A stretch of 63,062 nt of DNA, filler included, from Rhabdomonas costata (lineage: Eukaryota), in assembly GCA_019059605.1 (NCBI GenBank). It is 56 parts of 56 records of this genome, joined end to end, with 100 filler letters (N's around TTAATTAATTAA, not from the genome) between each part and the next. Parts side by side here need not be neighbours in the genome. Positions count along the whole stretch, not along the records: positions 53,003 to 54,030 come from JAHMHO010032681.1; positions 54,131 to 55,158 come from JAHMHO010032682.1; positions 55,259 to 56,286 come from JAHMHO010032683.1; positions 56,387 to 57,414 come from JAHMHO010032684.1; 52 more parts are not named here. The stretch is one strand, 5' to 3'. This document shows positions 11,284-57,414 of the stretch, piece after piece; position 1 is the first letter of the stretch; every line of letters begins with the position of its first letter. The notes beneath the pieces are model-generated. The model had not been told where the DNA came from. It searched no databases and saw only the letters and a program-made list of their open reading frames with translations. The position numbers were made by a program, and so were the translations under genes.

Positions 11284-12312
11284 AGAAAGGGGAGGATCTC
11301 CGAGATCCAGGCGCTTCCAGCAGCAGACTCTTTTTGTATCACATTGCCCACAACGGGAATGTTGGAAGCTGAGTTGGAGGAAAGTGGAAGTCCATTTCAG
11401 GTTGAAGGGGGTAGGATTGCAATTGAGGTGGCGCCCCCCATGAGCGAAGTGAAGATCCCCGTGCTCAGTTTAGCAGGGGAGAGTTCACGGTCTGATCAAG
11501 CGGTTGACACTAAGCGGAGGGGGTTGGTAAAGGTGTTGGGAGTGGCCCCCCAGCCGAGATTTCAGTGCTGCAAGACGAGATGGTTGGGAACGAAGGAGCA
11601 GCAGGAAGTGAGGAGGTGGAAGTCGTGCCTACGGCGGAAGATCAGCGAGCAGTGGCAAGAGCACAAGAGCCAAAGTGGAAGACGAAGAGAAAGTCGCGGA
11701 ATTCTCCAAGGAAAGAGGTGGAGAAGCTTATCAAGAAGGTGGACCACACACCACACACCACAGCGTGTGCGGCCCCACCTGTGCGGTAGTGTCGACACCA
11801 CCAGAGATTGAGGAGTTGAATAGGGAGTTCGCAGACATCTTTCCAGAGAAAGTTCCAGGTGGTTTGCCGCCAGCGAGGAAGACGGATCACAGGATTGATC
11901 TGAAGCCGGACAGCAAGATCCCAGCGCAAAGGTTGTATAGGATGTCGCCAGCGGAAGATGTGGAGCTACAGAAGCAGCTTAAGAGTTTACAAGAGCTAGG
12001 GTTCATTGAGCCAGCCACGTCTCCGTATGGTGCGGGAGTGCTGTTCGTACCGAAGGAGAATGGGAAGTTGAGGTTGTGTGTTGATTTTCGTCCGTTGAAT
12101 GCAATCACGATCGTAGATTCGTATCCATTACCTCGCATTGATGAAATGATTGATTACGCTGGTAAGGCTAAGGTGTTTTCGAAGTTAGATTTGCATGCAG
12201 GTTTTCATCAGATTCGTATTCATCCTTAGCATGTGGAGCGGACAGCATTTAAGACGAAGTACGGCACGTTTCAGTTTTTGGTGATGCCGTTTGGGTTGTG
12301 CAATGCGCCAGC
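11284..12312 (+). mobile_element. Ty3/Gypsy LTR retrotransposon pol fragment (spacer + RT N-half), defective
   Basis: EFADIFPEKVPGGLPPARKTDHRIDLKP...SPYGAGVLFVPKENGKLRLCVDFRPLN...YPLPRIDE...[45 protein letters not shown]; in-frame TAG at 12227-12229. Confidence 0.95.
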
Positions 12313-27800: not shown

Positions 27801-30800
27801 CGGTGCACTAACGGGTTGCCTCCCTAAGAATTCTTTGCCGACTATGTGGGTATTCAGGTTACGCAGGTGGCTTTCCAAAAACGGCGTACGCAGGCAACGC
27901 GGTGAACGATGTTTTGGAATTCCTCCCTTGCCACTATTATATGCAGATACACCGTTTAGGCATGAAACTTTTCAGGTCAACATGGTCTTGGGGACTGGGC
28001 CCGATTTTTACACTTGTTTTTTTTTAATATAGCGATATTGAAAAATGAAAGTCGTGGACAGATCGCTGAAAAATCGAATCCTCTCCTTGAGCGNNNNNNN
28101 NNNNNNNNNNNNNNNNNNNNNNNNNNNNNNNNNNNNNTTAATTAATTAANNNNNNNNNNNNNNNNNNNNNNNNNNNNNNNNNNNNNNNNNNNNTCCCCCA
28201 TTCTCCCCCAGCAACGTTCTCTCCCCAGCCGACTACTACACGGCCGCCGCGGGCTCGTCTCCGTTTTGGTGGCAGAAGCCCGAGGACTTATGGTGCAGCA
28301 GAGACCGGATCCTCTGCTTTAGAAACACCTGCATGGCCACGTATACCGTCCACATACTCTTAGATAACCCAATCCCCCCATTGAGGCAGTGGGAAGCGCG
28401 TTGCTATGGTGAGGCCAGGGTGGCGCCACCGTGTCCAGCGATCACTACAGCAGAAGCACCACCAACTAGCAAACAGAGGTCCGCACGGAGGACCGAAAAA
28501 AGGAGAACCGAATAAACCAGACACCAAAGCAAGGGAAACCAACCAGAACTAACGACAAAAGAAAGAAAGGCTAACCCAGATTAACAAAGTAACCAAATTA
28601 AGAAACGGTTATAACACCAAAAAGCACTGAAGAGCCAAAAGAAACAATGCTGCAGCCAACAAAGCATAACGCCAGCAGGAGAGCGAGCCCAGACAAGCCC
28701 AAAGTAAAGAAGTAACACAGCACGAAACGTCTCAAATGAAAGGTTAAGAACTTGTGCAAAAGACAGAAAATCTATAAAGTCTTTACTGTTATGTGGGTAA
28801 GGTGGGTTTTAGCTCCCCACGTTTCTCGTACAGAGGTGTGGGTCAGTGGTACAAGCTTTCAAGTAGAACTAGGCAAAAAGTGAGAAAAATCTGGCAGAAG
28901 AGAATTGTGTGCTATAGCCATGTTGACGATCTGACATTCGATTGTAAAAGCCCACAACTGACACACGCGAGTAACGTTGTTCATGCCTGGCTGATGGGCT
29001 TGATGAAGCTTAACACAGTTCCCCGCTTACTGCGAATCTATCTTTCGCCTTTTACTAAAGATAGCCGTTGGCTGGGGAACACGATGTGTTACATCAATTT
29101 TTGGAACCTTTCTTTTACTTCAACACCATTCCAAAAAAGCCAAGAAAGAAACTGTGCCCATTGTTGCGCAGGTGTCCACCCAGGGTTGAGGGTAGGACAA
29201 AAGCAGGCCGGACAAACCAACNNNNNNNNNNNNNNNNNNNNNNNNNNNNNNNNNNNNNNNNNNNNTTAATTAATTAANNNNNNNNNNNNNNNNNNNNNNN
29301 NNNNNNNNNNNNNNNNNNNNNTGCTCCTAAAGACCTCCCGAACCGCGACCGACACATTGTAGCCCCTTTGGCAGCTCAGGTCAGAGGGCTGGTGAACGCT
29401 CACTCCCTTTTGGTGTACTCTGACTGCTTGATGCCGATGCTCTGTACAGGCTTGCCCTATGTTGTGCTCTCTCTCTCACTCTCAAAAAAAAATGCCCGGG
29501 CCACCTTCAATGTGAGAGGTGAAAAGTGCTCCTAAAGCACCACCGTTTAGACTTGCAACTGGGGTTTAGGAATGACATTCGAATCTCGGCACAGATGCGT
29601 TCAAAATGTGCGGGTAACCGCTGTTAATATTCGCGTTTGAGTGTGACGGCGCGCCGAGCGGCAGGTGAAACCTTGAGTACAGCTCATCCGATGCAGGGAA
29701 ACCGTGTCGCGGAGGAGCAGGCTGACAGAAAAAGATAAACCAGGTATGAAAAGAATACATCCAGATAAACATCCATACCGCTGCGGTCGGACGAAAGCAG
29801 ACTACTATCCAGGAGAAGCAGAACGGAAAAACTCGCGTTGACCTGATCATTGCCGCTTTATAAGAAGTCAGCCTTTGAAAAAGCCATGACCAGAGCAACA
29901 AGCAGCCAGAAACGCTATATATATTTTGCTGAAGTTGACCTGACGTTGAAGGACTCAGTAAATAAATTCATGATGACAAGAGCGGAGCGAGAAAAAGAAA
30001 GGCGAAAGCGGTGCAAGGTGAAGTGAGGACCGAATACCGGGCGGGGTTCCCTGTGAATGTCCTGCTGCGGTTCCCTGTGAGCCCACGTGCCGTCTGCTGC
30101 TGTCGTTGTTGCTGTTGCTGTTACTGTTGCTGGGGCAGGCTGAGCGGCCTCCTCACCTCCGCCCCCGCGGACAGCCGCCCGGGACGGGGTCATCACCACA
30201 GGCCTCAGGGCCCCATCAGTTGGGTCTCTCTCCACGACCCACACCTTGTGCCCGTTGGCCACCACAGTGATCTGATCCCCAGAAGGGGTGCTGTCCGCGG
30301 GGGCGGAGGACTTTTTCGAGACAGGCGAAGAGACGGCAGCAGGGAGAGGNNNNNNNNNNNNNNNNNNNNNNNNNNNNNNNNNNNNNNNNNNNNTTAATTA
30401 ATTAANNNNNNNNNNNNNNNNNNNNNNNNNNNNNNNNNNNNNNNNNNNNGTGGGTTGCTGGCTGAAAAGCCAATTCCTGTAAATTCTTATGGGTGCTTCT
30501 CTAGCTCAAGATTGTGGGAAAATGAGATAAAGCTGCAAGCTGTTGTAACAATTTCTTCCCTCCGAGAGCATTGCCTTTTTTATTTTAACCTCGCTTGTTT
30601 GCCTTGGGCTAGTTTGTCCCTCTCCCAAATTCCCAATTCAGTTTTGCATAACCGCGCGAAGGCCAGTGCCGCGAAGGCCAAACACCTGAGCGCCATACAT
30701 GTTCCCCTGGAATTGCAACAGAAACCCAGCAGGGGTTTGGGTGCGGTGTACGTATGAGTACGTCGGAAACAGTTACGTTGGCTTCGCTGCACCGCTTCTC

Positions 30801-36416: not shown

Positions 36417-37116
36417 CTAGAGGGGAAAGGTTTTGAAGGAAACTGGTGCATTGCTGTGGCAAATGGAAAAGCACAACAGGGGTGAGACGTGGCCGATGTG
36501 ACGACGATGTGGGAAATAATACGCGACGGCAGCGATGAAGCCTGATTGGCAGGGGGCAGCATCACAGAACATCACGGGCATGCACACGGGAGGGGGGAGC
36601 ACGCGACAGATTAGAGGTCTCACAGATGAGAGGCATGCGATGAGCAAAGTGTGCCAAATACTGCGAGGAAGGAGAGCTGGAAAGCGTGGCTGGAGAAGGA
36701 GCTGATAACTGGAGGCGAGAAATGTCGCAGAAAGATAACACGTGGCAAGGAACCATTGCAGGAACCCGAGGAGGCGTTGCAAACATCGAGCGGAGAGGCG
36801 ACGGCAAAGAAGAAACCAGAGATGTTGAAGAGCCATAGCAATGCGAGAGGGAGTGTTGGAGACAGTGTCAAGCCAAGTGATGGACTGCGTTGGAACAAAC
36901 TCGGATTTATGGTTCAACTGAAGACCTGCAGATGTAATGAGATGCTCACAGTAGTGTGTGACGTAGGAAAGGAAGTGAGGATTGGCACACGAAAGAAGAA
37001 TCTCATCAAGATACTGAAAGAAGAGAAGTGAGCCACCAGAAAGGAGAGGATTTAGGGGAGAGAGTATGCGTGTGAGAGTGTGTTGTGCAAGGAAAGGAGA
37101 CCAGTACCACCCCAAC
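36417..37116 (-). mobile_element. DIRS/Ngaro-like (tyrosine-recombinase class) retrotransposon RT-RNase H fragment, probably defective
   Basis: GWYWSPFLAQ (the PFGW..SP motif), QYLDEILL (YxDD site, here YLDE), GLQLNHKSEFVPTQSITWL, LQRLLGFLQW, then MFCDAA (first RNase H acidic motif). Confidence 0.8.
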
Positions 37117-53876: not shown

Positions 53877-55259
53877 GGAAATGGAACCGCTGCAAGGCGG
53901 TGGTGCGCTGAGCGGTCTACTCTCAGAGTGGTGGCTCATGGACTGCGGCCGCTTCCGGCGACGAACCGAATGTCTCCTGCCTCAGTGGGGCAATAGTGAA
54001 GGAGACGGGGCACTAAAAGCCCCACACCCCNNNNNNNNNNNNNNNNNNNNNNNNNNNNNNNNNNNNNNNNNNNNTTAATTAATTAANNNNNNNNNNNNNN
54101 NNNNNNNNNNNNNNNNNNNNNNNNNNNNNNGACGGAGATGGCGATGGAGAATGGTTTGGTTTTCTCATTTTCGGTGTTTTTCGCCCTTTTAATTGTCCGG
54201 GGTCCAGGGTCCCCAAGTATGGACCTTGCCCCGCAGCCTGCAAGAGAAGCATTACACGCGGAATACCACACAGTGATAAGTCATGTTCATGCTGAGTTCA
54301 GTCAGTTTCAGATTTGTCTAGCGGAGTGTTGCAAGAAGACTCCGGATCAACATTCAACGCTCAGGGAAATACACATGAGCTTCTCACACTTTACTTCTCC
54401 AACAAGCTATGCCTTACCGCGCCCCTCAGCCAACAACAGGAACCGTTTGCGTGTTGTGTGTGTTTGGAGGAGATTCCCGTTTAACGGCATTAAAGGCGAA
54501 AAGTTGTGTTTTTGTGATGTTAGCTTCCCAACGCGTGGCTTTGAGCTTAACTACGTCAGCTATTCCCAGAATAATGTGTGCTTACATAAGGAAAGGGAAT
54601 ACAATTACCATGGTACCATGTCAGTGCCTCATAAAAGTTTCTTTTCGGTTCAAAGGAGTCAGAATACCTTTTACCGTTTAAAAAGGTTTTTAAACGTTTA
54701 ACCCGATTGAGCCCTCGATAAGTAGCGGGAACGAATCTCAAGCTCAAAAGCATGACACACCACAATCGCTTCCGTTGCCCAGGGTGAACTGCGCATTTCG
54801 CTTCTGGGATTGCAATCCATCTCACCCCACAGGATGTATGTACTTCAGCAGCAGCAGACTGGAGACCCCTTTGCGGCGTACCACGAAGCTGTGCTGAGCC
54901 TGTTCTACGGCTCCTACAGGAGGGGCCGTATGGGTCTGCAGGTGTGTATGTCCTGTCTTCCAGCCCCATGCTCCAGTCTCTCTTGCTGCTTTGGCCGATG
55001 GAAGAGAATGGGCATGAGGCTGTTCGGATCCTGGGTTGCTTCCGGAAGCAGAAATACACCTAAGGTTACCTACATGTCCGGAAACATTGGAAAATCCCCA
55101 CAAGAAACGATTTGAACGTCGAATACACCAGAATATTCTGGTCTCGGACCCCCACACANNNNNNNNNNNNNNNNNNNNNNNNNNNNNNNNNNNNNNNNNN
55201 NNTTAATTAATTAANNNNNNNNNNNNNNNNNNNNNNNNNNNNNNNNNNNNNNNNNNNNT

Positions 55260-56286
55260 GTGGTTTGTATGTTGTATTCATATGTATTTATTCCATGTAA
55301 TAATACATATTTTATTGTAAATAAAAATATAGCAGAGTATAATCATTTTATTTATTCTTTTAATAAATTATCAAAAGATACACAAGATGATATAAAAAGT
55401 GAAATTAAAATTTTATCAAGACCATGGGATCATCAAATAAAATCATGTAATAAAATCGTTGATCGTTATATAAATGGTGAATATCGAGGACAGGCGAATA
55501 GTTCAAATACTGGATCAGGTAAAACATTATGTTGTTTATTGATCTTTAAAAAATTATATGAAATTTCAAATTATGGAAAAGGATTCCTAGTTATGTTGCC
55601 TAATAATAAATTATATACATCATGGATTGATGAAATTAATAAACATACAAATGGATTTGAAATTATAACACAAAATGCAAATGGAACATTAAAAATGGAA
55701 AGTAAAGAAAATTTTTTTAAGAAAAAAAATACACAAATAAATCATACAACAATTGTTTTAACAACAATGGGCCGCATGCGTGATCATCCTATAAACAATA
55801 AATGGAAATTAGTATGTATTGATGAATGTTTAACAGTTCAAAACAATAATGCACTATGGACTATAGAAGCATGGCGACAAATTATAAATAGTCATTATGG
55901 TTGTTTATTAATGAGTGCTACGTTTTTTAGATCTAAATTTGAAAAATTATTTTATATGTTAAAGATGCTTTGTTCTGGAATACCTGAACAAAAAAAATAT
56001 TTAGATTTGATTTTAAATGAGACGATGATATGTGACAATATTGAAGGTAAAAATTGGATAACAAACGTAAATCATATTAAATTATCAGATGAAGATAAAA
56101 AAAAATATGATTTAATAAAAAATATAAAAACAAAATCATCAAAAGAAACATATATAAAATTAGAATCATTTATTCAAGAATATGATATTACGGATTTTTT
56201 AGTAGATAAAATAAAAGAATTAAATAAAAAAGATTTGAATGTCTTATTATTCATAGACGGTATTGAAAAAACAAATAAAATTAATG
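55260..56286 (+). CDS. Superfamily 2 (DEAD/SNF2-like) helicase fragment, probably from a giant virus
   Basis: Open across the whole AT-rich contig, no introns. Q-like motif PWDHQ, Walker A NTGSGKT, Walker B LVCIDECL, motif III LMSAT. Confidence 0.85.
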
Positions 56287-56386
56287 NNNNNNNNNNNNNN
56301 NNNNNNNNNNNNNNNNNNNNNNNNNNNNNNTTAATTAATTAANNNNNNNNNNNNNNNNNNNNNNNNNNNNNNNNNNNNNNNNNNNN

Positions 56387-57041
56387 GTTCCATGCCATTA
56401 AACAATGGTTCATTATTTTCTTTTTCAATATATACTGTAAAATATGAAATGATATGTGTATTTTTTGCATATATTGTTCCACTATATCCTGCATGTATTG
56501 CTAATCTCATTATATCATCACATAACTGTTCTGACTGTGATACATAATAATCTTTTTTATTATGTTTTTTAAAGTTATAATCCATAATCAAAGATAATAA
56601 TAATCTTGATTGTCGTTGTCCAAGGTCCCATACAAATCCTGGTATTGTTTGTATATCATTCGCAATATCTTGTGCAATATTATGTAAATATACATCTGTT
56701 TCATATTTTTCATTTTCAATACATATTTCTTCTTTTTCACTATATATATTATTACAATTCTTTTTGTAATGTACCGAATTACCAAATACTATTTTTGCAG
56801 GTACTCGTTCAAATGTATCATTCATTTTAACATATAAATGATGATCTATTGTAACATCTAGATCTACTTCTTTTGATCTTATTTTATATATTTGTCCTTT
56901 ATATTGTAATTTATATATTTCAGTTGGATTTTCATATTCAAGATATTTTCCATTTACTAAAATTGCAACTTTATCATACATAGTTATATCTTTGATATTT
57001 TTCCATCCTGAAGATGTTAATACATCACAATTTAAAAAACA
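56387..57041 (-). mobile_element. Intein inserted in RPB2 after GDKF (N-terminal part; C-terminus lies off the contig)
   Basis: In place of the expected (S/C)SRHGQKG the frame continues CFLNCDVLTSSGWKNIKDI (block A, Cys1) and VDLDVTIDHHLYV (block B, TxxH), then a degenerate LAGLIDADG-type region. Confidence 0.88.
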
Positions 57042-57414
57042 AAATTTATCACCCACATGAGGCAACCGTTCTGATCTTACTTTGATTTTTTTAATACCAT
57101 AGCCTTCACTATTATATATATATCAGTATATACTTTGTCAATAGTTCCCGGTTCTTGATATTGATATATTTCACTATTATCTGTATATATCTTATCACTT
57201 CCTTCTATTGGTAGTATCGGTGATACTTTTCCTATTAATATATCGCCCTTTACTACTTTGGTCTCTTCTGGAACATATCCTTTCTCATTTAATTTATCAT
57301 ATACACCATATTTAATTCCTGTTAATTTTTCAGGTTCTGGTTTCAAAAATATGTCATCATGTGATGTTATTTGATTCTTCTTTATTTCTGATACATATTT
57401 TTGAAACCCAACAC
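56387..57414 (-). CDS. RPB2: DNA-directed RNA polymerase second-largest subunit (RPB2) fragment, NCLDV-like, intein-containing, frameshifted near 57113-57123
   Basis: YDKLNEKGYVPEETKVVKGDILIGKVSP...GTIDKVYTDIY / NSEGYGIKKIKVRSERLPHVGDKF: the conserved RPB2 hybrid-binding region ending at GDKF. AT-rich, intron-less. Confidence 0.9.

What the first reader, a model, noticed from the sequence alone, without database searches (positions are those of the whole stretch)
55259..57414. Giant-virus-like (Nucleocytoviricota) DNA inside a protist amplified-genome assembly: candidate virus-host link or endogenous giant virus
Seen: two contigs are far more AT-rich than all others, coding end to end and intron-less. 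They encode an SF2 helicase and an RPB2 fragment, while the other contigs are of roughly balanced GC and intron-rich. Established: AT-rich, intron-less eukaryote-type RPB2 with inteins is characteristic of Mimiviridae-related viruses. Inference: the virus infected, was ingested by, or is integrated in this flagellate; a Klosneuvirinae-like affinity is my impression only. The two contigs are separated by an artificial spacer, so their physical linkage is not shown.
Basis: partly seen in the sequence, partly recalled or inferred. Interest (0 to 1): 0.78.

Follow-up and report, generated by a model that had tools for sequence, protein, structure and literature searches.

The report
Giant-virus gene fragments among eukaryote contigs
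Two short, very AT-rich pieces in this fragmented eukaryote assembly are bits of a Mimivirus-like giant virus genome (a helicase and an intein-split RNA polymerase subunit), but nothing here shows whether the virus infected, was eaten by, or is built into the cell.

Summary
The window is 56 contigs of about 1 kb joined by artificial spacers. Contigs 55259-56286 (GC 22.4%) and 56387-57414 (GC 26.0%) are the only two below 40% GC, and the only two with contig-long open frames.

- **Contig A** is an internal piece of a roughly 1,250-aa protein with a DEAD/SNF2-like helicase core. Its relatives sit on giant-virus contigs and are 38-55% identical.
- **Contig B** is RPB2 domain 6, broken by one frameshift in a (TA) run. 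After GDKF it runs into a Cys-initiated intein, and the contig ends inside that intein.
- **The RPB2 piece** scores 113-127 bits against Mimiviridae-type RPB2. It scores only 23-34 bits against every solved cellular or other viral RPB2, the same as a real Indivirus piece.
- **The intein site:** 48 of 80 IMG/VR relatives carry an insert at the same site.

A giant-virus (Imitervirales-like) origin is well supported. A Klosneuvirinae affinity is unresolved. Infection, ingestion, integration, contamination and linkage of the two contigs could not be tested, because no genome or reads were available. This is a new, divergent member of a known kind, of modest interest.

The parts
55259..56286 (+). 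Contig A: an internal fragment (342 codons, open at both ends) of a giant-virus DEAD/SNF2-like superfamily-2 helicase protein. It corresponds to about residues 790-1130 of relatives that are 1,200-1,370 aa long.
   Evidence: ORF. Pfam ResIII 1.3e-13, DEAD 7.5e-13, SNF2-rel_dom 2.1e-10. Relatives. Position of the match within full-length relatives.
55512..55526 (+). Walker A / helicase motif I, GSGKT (residues 85-89 of P0001).
   Evidence: Read. G87 and K88 are nearly invariant in alignment A1.
55821..55832 (+). Helicase motif II, DECL (Walker B, DExx).
   Evidence: D188, E189, C190 and L191 are invariant in 16 aligned sequences.
55914..55922 (+). Helicase motif III, SAT.
   Evidence: S219 and A220 invariant, T221 nearly invariant.
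56387..57414 (-). Contig B: a fragment of the RNA polymerase second-largest subunit (RPB2) that runs into an intein.
57122..57412 (-). RPB2 domain-6 piece, first reading frame (97 residues).
   Evidence: Pfam RNA_pol_Rpb2_6 2.5e-07. 59-66% identity to giant-virus RPB2.
57113..57123 (.). An 11-base (TA) run where the RPB2 frame shifts. Relatives have the same number of residues across this spot as the window would have with two bases fewer.
   Evidence: Sequence, the two frames, spacing in relatives.
57042..57116 (-). RPB2 piece in the second reading frame, NSEGYGIKKIKVRSERLPHVGDKF. It ends at the conserved GDKF just before the intein.
   Evidence: Aligned to Pol II RPB2 GDKF and to relatives.
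56388..57041 (-). N-terminal 218 residues of an intein that begins with Cys directly after GDKF. The contig ends inside it, so the C-terminal splice junction is missing.
   Evidence: 55% and 44% identity to the intein at the same site in P0027, and 47% to that of P0022. Pfam Intein_splicing 3.4e-4, below its cut-off. PDB AceL NrdHF intein 4.4e-4. phrog_85 1.4e-9.
56841..56852 (-). TIDH, the TxxH motif expected in intein block B. The motif name is recalled.
   Evidence: Read. Aligned to TIDH in P0022 and P0027.

Best explanation
Both contigs are fragments of the genome of one or two uncultured giant viruses of the Mimivirus kind (Nucleocytoviricota, Imitervirales-like). They were sequenced and assembled together with the DNA of a eukaryote.

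Contig A encodes the ATPase core (motifs I-III) of a DEAD/SNF2-like helicase domain. In complete relatives this domain sits in the C-terminal third of a protein of about 1,250 aa. Contig B encodes part of the virus's own RNA polymerase subunit RPB2. Its gene carries a self-splicing intein right after the GDKF motif, and the intein would have to be cut out of the protein for the polymerase to work.

My best guess for the setting, which is inferred and not shown, is non-integrated viral DNA: a replicating virus, or particles inside or stuck to the sampled cell. On that reading the single frameshift in a (TA) run is an amplification or assembly slip. I put viral origin at about 0.9, and non-integrated DNA belonging to the sample at about 0.6.
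For: Composition and coding:
- GC is 22.4% and 26.0%, against 40.0-59.4% for the other 54 contigs.
- Open frames of 342 and 245 codons have chance probabilities of about 2e-17 and 4e-12.

RPB2 piece:
- 97 proteins reach E<=0.001 among 154 candidates. The best score 127 bits at 63-66% identity.
- All 5 organism names among the hits are viral: Mimivirus LCMiAC02 64%, Indivirus 59%, Barrevirus 58%, Edafosvirus 59%, uncultured virus 59%.
- Against all solved structures the best match is an RPB2 homologue at 34 bits (the African swine fever virus polymerase, as I recall the entries). Pol II RPB2 scores 23-29 bits, and no Pol I, Pol III or archaeal chain passes E 0.001.
- The matching Indivirus piece gives 25-33 bits against Pol II.
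- In the 123-column tree the piece joins P0027/P0037 with 99/97 support, inside the viral set. A member of P0027's cluster lies on a 490-kb contig.

Intein:
- It is homologous along its whole available length to the inteins at the same site in P0027 and P0022.
- 48 of 80 IMG/VR relatives have a Cys-initiated insert at or one residue after this site.

Helicase:
- 18 hits, best 52% identity, with Edafosvirus at 42%.
- 30 IMG/VR loci, 28 of them at 35-44% identity, on GVMAG contigs and on records of 1.02-1.26 Mb.
- The 1,021,348-bp record has the length given for moumouvirus in the abstract of PMC3542560.
- Only 204 representatives in 1.84 billion proteins reach E<=0.001.

No host-like flank on either contig.
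Against: - Only about 2 kb is available. No capsid, PolB, A32 or VLTF3 gene was seen, and the rest of the assembly could not be screened.
- One helicase relative, at 39% identity, is annotated in a ciliate genome (Pseudocohnilembus persalinus, on a 1.2-Mb contig). The family therefore also occurs in eukaryote assemblies.
- RNA-polymerase inteins also occur in some eukaryotes (PMC10710043 passages).
- No named cellular RPB2 could be put in a tree. The case against a cellular origin rests on score gaps, not on phylogeny.
- The frameshift in an essential gene would also fit a decaying integrated copy.
- Nothing links the two contigs to each other or to the cell.
- The protein-atlas neighbours of the helicase were mostly phage SNF2 clusters. 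I read that only as shared superfamily.
Confidence: 0.85

Rival explanations
1. The two pieces belong to an endogenous giant-virus element integrated in the nuclear genome of the sequenced eukaryote.
For: - RPB2, an essential gene, carries a frameshift at 57113-57123.
- One helicase relative is annotated in a ciliate nuclear assembly and pairs with Edafosvirus in the quick tree at 96 SH-aLRT, so such genes do end up in eukaryote genomes.
- Giant-virus endogenization is documented in print. I saw it only as entries in the reference list of PMC10710043.
Against: - There is no host-like sequence at any contig end, and GC is 17-33% throughout.
- The helicase frame is intact over 342 codons at 22% GC.
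- The only defect is a two-base-type slip in a dinucleotide run, a common amplification or assembly error (my inference).
- Contigs of 1 kb are too short to decide.
Confidence: 0.2
2. The pieces are contaminating giant-virus DNA (from reagents, neighbouring samples or free particles in the sorted droplet) with no biological tie to the cell.
For: Only two 1-kb fragments are seen. No coverage or control data were available.
Against: No near-identical sequence turned up:
- IMG/VR.
- JGI metagenome contigs.
- The protein collections, where the best matches are 55% and 66% identical.
So it is not a commonly sequenced laboratory or reference virus. This weakens the idea but does not exclude it.
Confidence: 0.15
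3. The pieces are nuclear genes of an AT-rich cellular eukaryote, such as prey or a contaminant like a ciliate or slime mould.
For: - Eukaryote-type RPB2 with inteins exists in some eukaryotes (PMC10710043 passages).
- One ciliate protein matches the helicase at 39% identity.
Against: - The RPB2 piece scores only 23-29 bits against solved Pol II RPB2, against 113-127 bits for giant-virus RPB2. That is exactly how a real Indivirus piece behaves.
- Both contigs lack introns.
- Neither open frame contains an in-frame TAA or TAG. From my own knowledge, many ciliates read these codons as glutamine, so a gene from such a ciliate would usually contain some.
Confidence: 0.03
4. The helicase contig comes from a bacteriophage or a bacterium.
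For: - Atlas neighbours by language-model features are mostly phage SNF2 clusters.
- PHROGs DNA-helicase families match at 2.4e-10 and 8e-9.
Against: - Those matches are 35-40 bits, against 220-265 bits for proteins on giant-virus contigs.
- The homologous region lies in proteins of 1,200-1,370 aa on Mb-scale viral records.
Confidence: 0.01

Closest known systems
Intein-bearing RPB2 of Mimiviridae-type giant viruses. Named examples are Mimivirus LCMiAC02 (P0052) and Edafosvirus (P0112). Another is the 617,453-bp IMG/VR record L083, which I take from memory of its length to be Cafeteria roenbergensis virus.
   Same: - Eukaryote-type RPB2 domain 6, 52-64% identical.
- L083 has a Cys-initiated insert directly after GDKF, at the same site.
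- Edafosvirus P0112 is named intein-containing and carries a precomputed LAGLIDADG_3 match, as does LCMiAC02.
- Low GC.
   Different: - The nearest sequences are unnamed metagenome proteins (P0027/P0037, P0023, P0025), not any named virus.
- Identity is at most 66%.
- Only the first 218 intein residues are present.
- The gene has a frameshift.
Klosneuvirinae (Indivirus P0053, Barrevirus P0066, Edafosvirus P0006 and P0112)
   Same: - RPB2 piece 58-59% identical and helicase 42% identical.
- In the full-length backbone tree the window's nearest neighbours share a clade with 100% SH-aLRT support with Indivirus, Barrevirus and LCMiAC02, apart from the L083 clade.
   Different: - The piece does not fall inside the Indivirus/Barrevirus group.
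- Holding it there costs 36 log-likelihood units, with AU p 0.049, which is borderline.
- No Megamimivirinae or other named subfamilies were in the tree.
The DEAD/SNF2-like helicase protein family of giant viruses. There are two copies in each of the 1,021,348-bp (moumouvirus-length) and 1,259,197-bp IMG/VR records.
   Same: - The same ResIII/DEAD/SNF2 core with motifs I-III, 39-43% identical.
- The family is small: 204 representatives.
   Different: - Only the middle 342 residues are present.
- The window's piece pairs with P0004 (55% identical over the matched stretch; 97 SH-aLRT) outside the clade that holds those isolates' copies (quick tree).
- I did not test whether this family is the 'superfamily II helicase' core marker NCVOG0076 used in PMC7162819.
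Giant viruses recovered from sorted single wild protists (PMC6789865 and PMC6792449, abstracts seen; PMC12644861, abstract seen)
   Same: Giant-virus DNA found alongside the DNA of an uncultured eukaryote in one assembly.
   Different: Those studies recovered large parts of viral genomes and backed the host link with further evidence. Here there are two 1-kb fragments and no such evidence.

Membership tests
Nucleocytoviricota, Imitervirales-like (Mimiviridae in the wide sense) genome fragment | A virus-encoded eukaryote-type RNA polymerase second-largest subunit whose nearest relatives are giant-virus RPB2, not cellular RPB2/RPA2/RPC2. | tested here: met
   113-127 bits against giant-virus RPB2, against 23-34 bits for all solved RPB2 chains. 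The Indivirus control behaves the same way. The piece sits within the viral rows in the tree. No named cellular sequence was in the tree.
Nucleocytoviricota, Imitervirales-like (Mimiviridae in the wide sense) genome fragment | A helicase of a family carried on giant-virus genomes. | tested here: met
   28 IMG/VR loci at 35-44% identity on GVMAG and Mb-scale records. Edafosvirus at 42%. One ciliate-annotated exception.
Nucleocytoviricota, Imitervirales-like (Mimiviridae in the wide sense) genome fragment | Low GC, densely coding, no spliceosomal introns. | tested here: met
Nucleocytoviricota, Imitervirales-like (Mimiviridae in the wide sense) genome fragment | The other hallmark genes (major capsid protein, PolB, A32 ATPase, VLTF3) in the same genome. 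| not testable with these tools
   No whole assembly is held. No other coding-dense contig is in the window.
Klosneuvirinae | Falls inside the clade of named Klosneuvirinae in marker-gene trees. | tested here: inconclusive
   Outside Indivirus/Barrevirus in the 123-column tree. AU p 0.049. Edafosvirus is unresolved, and few named references were available.
Intein (Hint-domain self-splicing protein element) | A Cys (or Ser) as first residue, inserted within a conserved host-protein motif. | tested here: met
   GDKF|C. Intein-free relatives read GDKF[ATSC][SN]RHGQKG, and 48 of 80 relatives have an insert here.
Intein (Hint-domain self-splicing protein element) | Block B TxxH motif (name recalled). 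| tested here: met
   TIDH at 56841-56852, aligned to TIDH in P0022 and P0027.
Intein (Hint-domain self-splicing protein element) | A match to the curated intein splicing-domain model. | tested here: inconclusive
   Pfam Intein_splicing scores 20.9 bits, below the 35.8-bit cut-off. Relatives carry precomputed PF14890 and PF14528 matches.
Intein (Hint-domain self-splicing protein element) | A C-terminal splice junction (terminal Asn plus a Cys/Ser/Thr at the start of the next extein), and actual splicing. | not testable with these tools
   The contig ends inside the intein at 56387.
Endogenous giant-virus element | A junction between viral and host DNA on one molecule. | tested here: not met
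   No host-like flank in either contig. The contigs are only 1 kb, so this is weak evidence.
Endogenous giant-virus element | Signs of decay, such as stops, frameshifts or introns. | tested here: inconclusive
   One frameshift in a (TA) run in RPB2, with the helicase frame intact.

The most novel reading that the evidence does not exclude
The two fragments come from a virus of an unnamed Imitervirales lineage, the P0027/P0037 group, which so far is known only from metagenomes. On this reading the virus was replicating in, or is integrated into, this particular eukaryote. That would be the first host assignment for the lineage. If integrated, it would be a giant-virus insertion caught with an RPB2 gene that has just begun to decay.
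Probability: 0.3. Interest if true: 0.55.

Novelty: new member of a known kind. Interest (0 to 1): 0.3.

Why it matters
Most giant-virus lineages known from metagenomes have no known host. Viral DNA inside a single-organism assembly is one of the few cultivation-free ways to propose one. These fragments are divergent: at most 55% identity for the helicase and 66% for RPB2 to anything in the collections searched. They flag this assembly as worth screening for the rest of the virus. On their own, two 1-kb pieces add a data point and not a host link.

Tried and rejected
- **Whole-assembly screen:** not possible, because no genome is held.
- **RPB2 from the large IMG/VR records behind L005, L010, L015 and L083:** the records are not held.
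- **Cellular RPB2 references:** I searched with P0118, the most Pol II-like hit (1,050 bits to human RPB2). It returned 120 listed relatives with no organism names, on contigs up to 1.4 Mb. I could only use them as an outgroup of unknown nature.
- **Full-length RPB2 tree:** the window's piece was dropped for filling under 10% of the columns, so I rebuilt the tree on the 123 shared columns.
- **Helicase tree:** the careful search did not finish, so only the quick tree is reported.
- **Cluster look-up of 10 top hits:** gave no organism names.
- **Protein atlas:** gave only superfamily-level phage SNF2 neighbours.
- **Solved structures:** no match to the helicase piece at E<=0.01.
- **Close-relative scans:** nothing in IMG/VR with the helicase, and nothing in JGI metagenome contigs with the intein piece or the helicase.
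- **Earlier notes of this scan:** nothing by place, sequence or words.
- **** was a badly formed pattern search and gave nothing useful.
- **Intein count:** a first attempt with a strict context pattern missed many loci. The alignment-based count replaces it.
Full report
**What the window is.**

The 63,062 bases are 56 contigs joined by N44-TTAATTAATTAA-N44 spacers. Of the 56, 41 are exactly 1028 bp and the rest are 1013-1037 bp. The listing therefore seems to run by length, and neighbouring contigs need not be linked. That is my inference.

The finding covers two of these contigs: A at 55259-56286 and B at 56387-57414.

**Check of the observation.**

- **Composition.** A has 22.4% GC and B has 26.0%. 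The other 54 contigs lie between 40.0% and 59.4%. In 150-bp steps both contigs stay at 17-33% GC from end to end.
- **Open frames.** A is open in one + frame for all 342 codons. B is open on the - strand for 97 codons, and then in another frame for 245 codons. Given each contig's base composition, the chance of such open frames is about 2e-17, 3e-5 and 4e-12.
- **Other contigs.** None has an open frame above 232 codons. Of their ten longest frames, eight match no Pfam family and two match reverse transcriptase weakly. One contig holds a U5 spliceosomal RNA.

So the bulk of the window is eukaryotic, poor in long ORFs and carries retroelement debris. I could confirm neither 'intron-rich' nor 'protist'.

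**Contig A.**

Pfam finds ResIII, DEAD and SNF2-related domains. Motifs I (GSGKT), II (DECL) and III (SAT) are present, and they fall on invariant or nearly invariant columns of a 16-sequence alignment.

- **Word-indexed search.** It gave 18 relatives among 2,163 candidates. The best was 52% identical. The only two organism names were Edafosvirus (42%) and the ciliate Pseudocohnilembus persalinus (39%).
- **IMG/VR.** A scan gave 30 loci, 28 of them at 35-44% identity. They lie on GVMAG contigs and on records of 1.02, 1.15 and 1.26 Mb. The 1,021,348-bp record has the genome length stated for moumouvirus in the abstract of PMC3542560. That record and the 1.26-Mb record each hold two copies.
- **Exhaustive search.** Among 1.84 billion representatives, only 204 proteins reached E<=0.001. 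Most were 1,200-1,370 aa long, and the window's residues 2-340 aligned to their residues of about 790-1130. The stop-to-stop frames around the IMG/VR matches show the same layout. Pfam sees nothing in the N-terminal 800 or so residues of four such proteins.

Contig A is therefore an internal piece of a long giant-virus protein. It is not a whole gene, and the ATG at 55269 need not be a start codon.

In a quick tree the piece pairs with P0004 (97 SH-aLRT), outside the clade that holds the two Mb-scale records' copies. The careful search did not finish.

**Contig B.**

- **First frame.** This is RPB2 domain 6.
- **Frameshift.** At an 11-base (TA) run (57113-57123) the reading frame shifts. The spacing in relatives (VYT-5 residues-EGY) fits the window if the run were two bases shorter.
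- **Second frame.** It continues as NSEGYGIKKIKVRSERLPHVGDKF and then CFLNCDVLTSSGW...

Relatives without an intein read GDKF[ATSC][SN]RHGQKG at this point. Of 80 IMG/VR relatives:
- 39 have a Cys-initiated insert directly after GDK[FL]. One of these looks atypical, and one is cut off by the end of the locus.
- 9 have the insert one residue later.
- 32 have none. These are 29 classed 'no intein' plus 3 classed 'other', which are intein-free by eye.

The window's insert is 55% (N-terminal part) and 44% (later part) identical to the insert at the same site in P0027, and 47% identical to that in P0022. It has a TIDH motif aligned to theirs.

The generic intein matches are weak:
- Pfam 20.9 bits, below the 35.8-bit cut-off.
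- A solved NrdHF intein at 4.4e-4.
- A PHROGs family at 1.4e-9.

The contig ends inside the intein, so the C-terminal junction cannot be seen.

**Viral or cellular?**

The 97-residue RPB2 piece found 97 proteins at E<=0.001 among 154 candidates. The best scored 127 bits at 63-66% identity, and many of the hits carry intein domains. All five organism names among them are viral: Mimivirus LCMiAC02, Indivirus, Barrevirus, Edafosvirus and 'uncultured virus'.

Against every solved structure the best score is 34 bits, to an RPB2 homologue. As I recall those entries, it is the African swine fever virus polymerase. Pol II RPB2 of yeasts and mammals scores 23-29 bits, and no Pol I, Pol III or archaeal chain passes E 0.001. 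As a control, the matching 97 residues of Indivirus RPB2 score 25-33 bits against the same Pol II chains. The window's piece is thus as far from cellular RPB2 as a real Mimiviridae RPB2, and much closer to the latter.

I could not obtain named cellular RPB2 sequences for a tree. The search meant to fetch them returned only unnamed relatives of P0118. This point therefore rests on score gaps.

Passages of PMC10710043 state that RNA-polymerase subunits carry inteins in some fungi, amoebozoans and Anaeramoeba as well as in Nucleocytoviricota. The intein alone is therefore not diagnostic.

**Placement within giant viruses.**

- In a careful tree of 73 rows on 123 columns, the piece joins P0027/P0037 (99/97). 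That group then joins P0023/P0025/P0038/P0082 (97/80).
- In the full-length backbone tree, from which the window's piece was dropped, these neighbours lie in a clade with 100% SH-aLRT support together with Indivirus, Barrevirus and LCMiAC02. They are apart from the clade of L083, the 617,453-bp record, which I recall as Cafeteria roenbergensis virus.
- AU tests are borderline for forcing the piece into the Indivirus/Barrevirus group (p 0.049) or the L083 group (p 0.055).

'Klosneuvirinae-like' is therefore possible but not shown.

**What remains open.**

- No closer relative exists in IMG/VR, in JGI metagenome contigs or in the protein collections.
- No whole assembly and no reads were available.
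- Infection, ingestion, integration, contamination, the reality of the frameshift and the linkage of the two contigs are all untested.

Finding giant-virus DNA alongside single uncultured protists is an established approach (abstracts of PMC6789865, PMC6792449 and PMC12644861). Supplementary files of these papers were not consulted.

**Verdict.**

This is real giant-virus DNA from a divergent Imitervirales-like lineage, seen as two small fragments. It is a new member of a known kind. Interest is modest unless the rest of the assembly or the reads tie it to the cell.

Noticed in passing
window 29012-29126 (+): A complete U5 spliceosomal snRNA (77 bits, gathering score 40) on one of the 50%-GC contigs. 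It shows that the bulk DNA is eukaryotic.
   Followed up: no
window 36420-37115 (-) and 11612-12226 (+): Two of the ten longest ORFs outside the finding match reverse transcriptase RVT_1 weakly (24.7 and 32.1 bits). They look like retroelement fragments. The other eight match nothing.
   Followed up: no
whole window: 41 of the 56 contigs are exactly 1028 bp and the rest are 1013-1037 bp, so the window looks like a slice of a length-ordered, very fragmented assembly. Adjacency of contigs carries no linkage information.
   Followed up: partly
P0027 (relative, 1878 aa): The nearest RPB2 relative seems to carry two inteins in tandem near the GDKF site. The window's intein N-part also matches a second stretch at residues 1288-1379, at 42% identity.
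   Followed up: no
L033, L057, L069, L100 (IMG/VR loci): In 4 of the 80 RPB2 loci the frame breaks with stop codons right after GDKF[CS][SN]RHG. That suggests another kind of interruption a few residues downstream of the intein site, such as an intron or a split gene.
   Followed up: no
P0023, P0025, P0038, P0054, P0064, P0066, P0067, P0072, P0082, P0089, P0032, P0045 (relatives): In 12 of the 72 RPB2 reference rows examined, no GDK[FL] was found within the roughly 40-residue search span downstream of the part matching the window's 97-residue piece. A further insertion just upstream of the GDKF site may explain this.
   Followed up: no
P0020 (Pseudocohnilembus persalinus, 360 aa, on a 1.2-Mb contig): A ciliate-annotated protein is 39% identical to the helicase piece and pairs with the Edafosvirus helicase in the quick tree (96 SH-aLRT). 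It may be a giant-virus-derived gene in a ciliate assembly.
   Followed up: no
P0118 and its 120 listed relatives: A large group of unnamed, apparently intron-free RPB2 proteins of about 1,180 aa, on contigs up to 1.4 Mb. P0118 is closer to Pol II (1,050 bits to human RPB2) than the Mimiviridae-type P0084 (659 bits). Its nature, viral or cellular, was not settled.
   Followed up: partly
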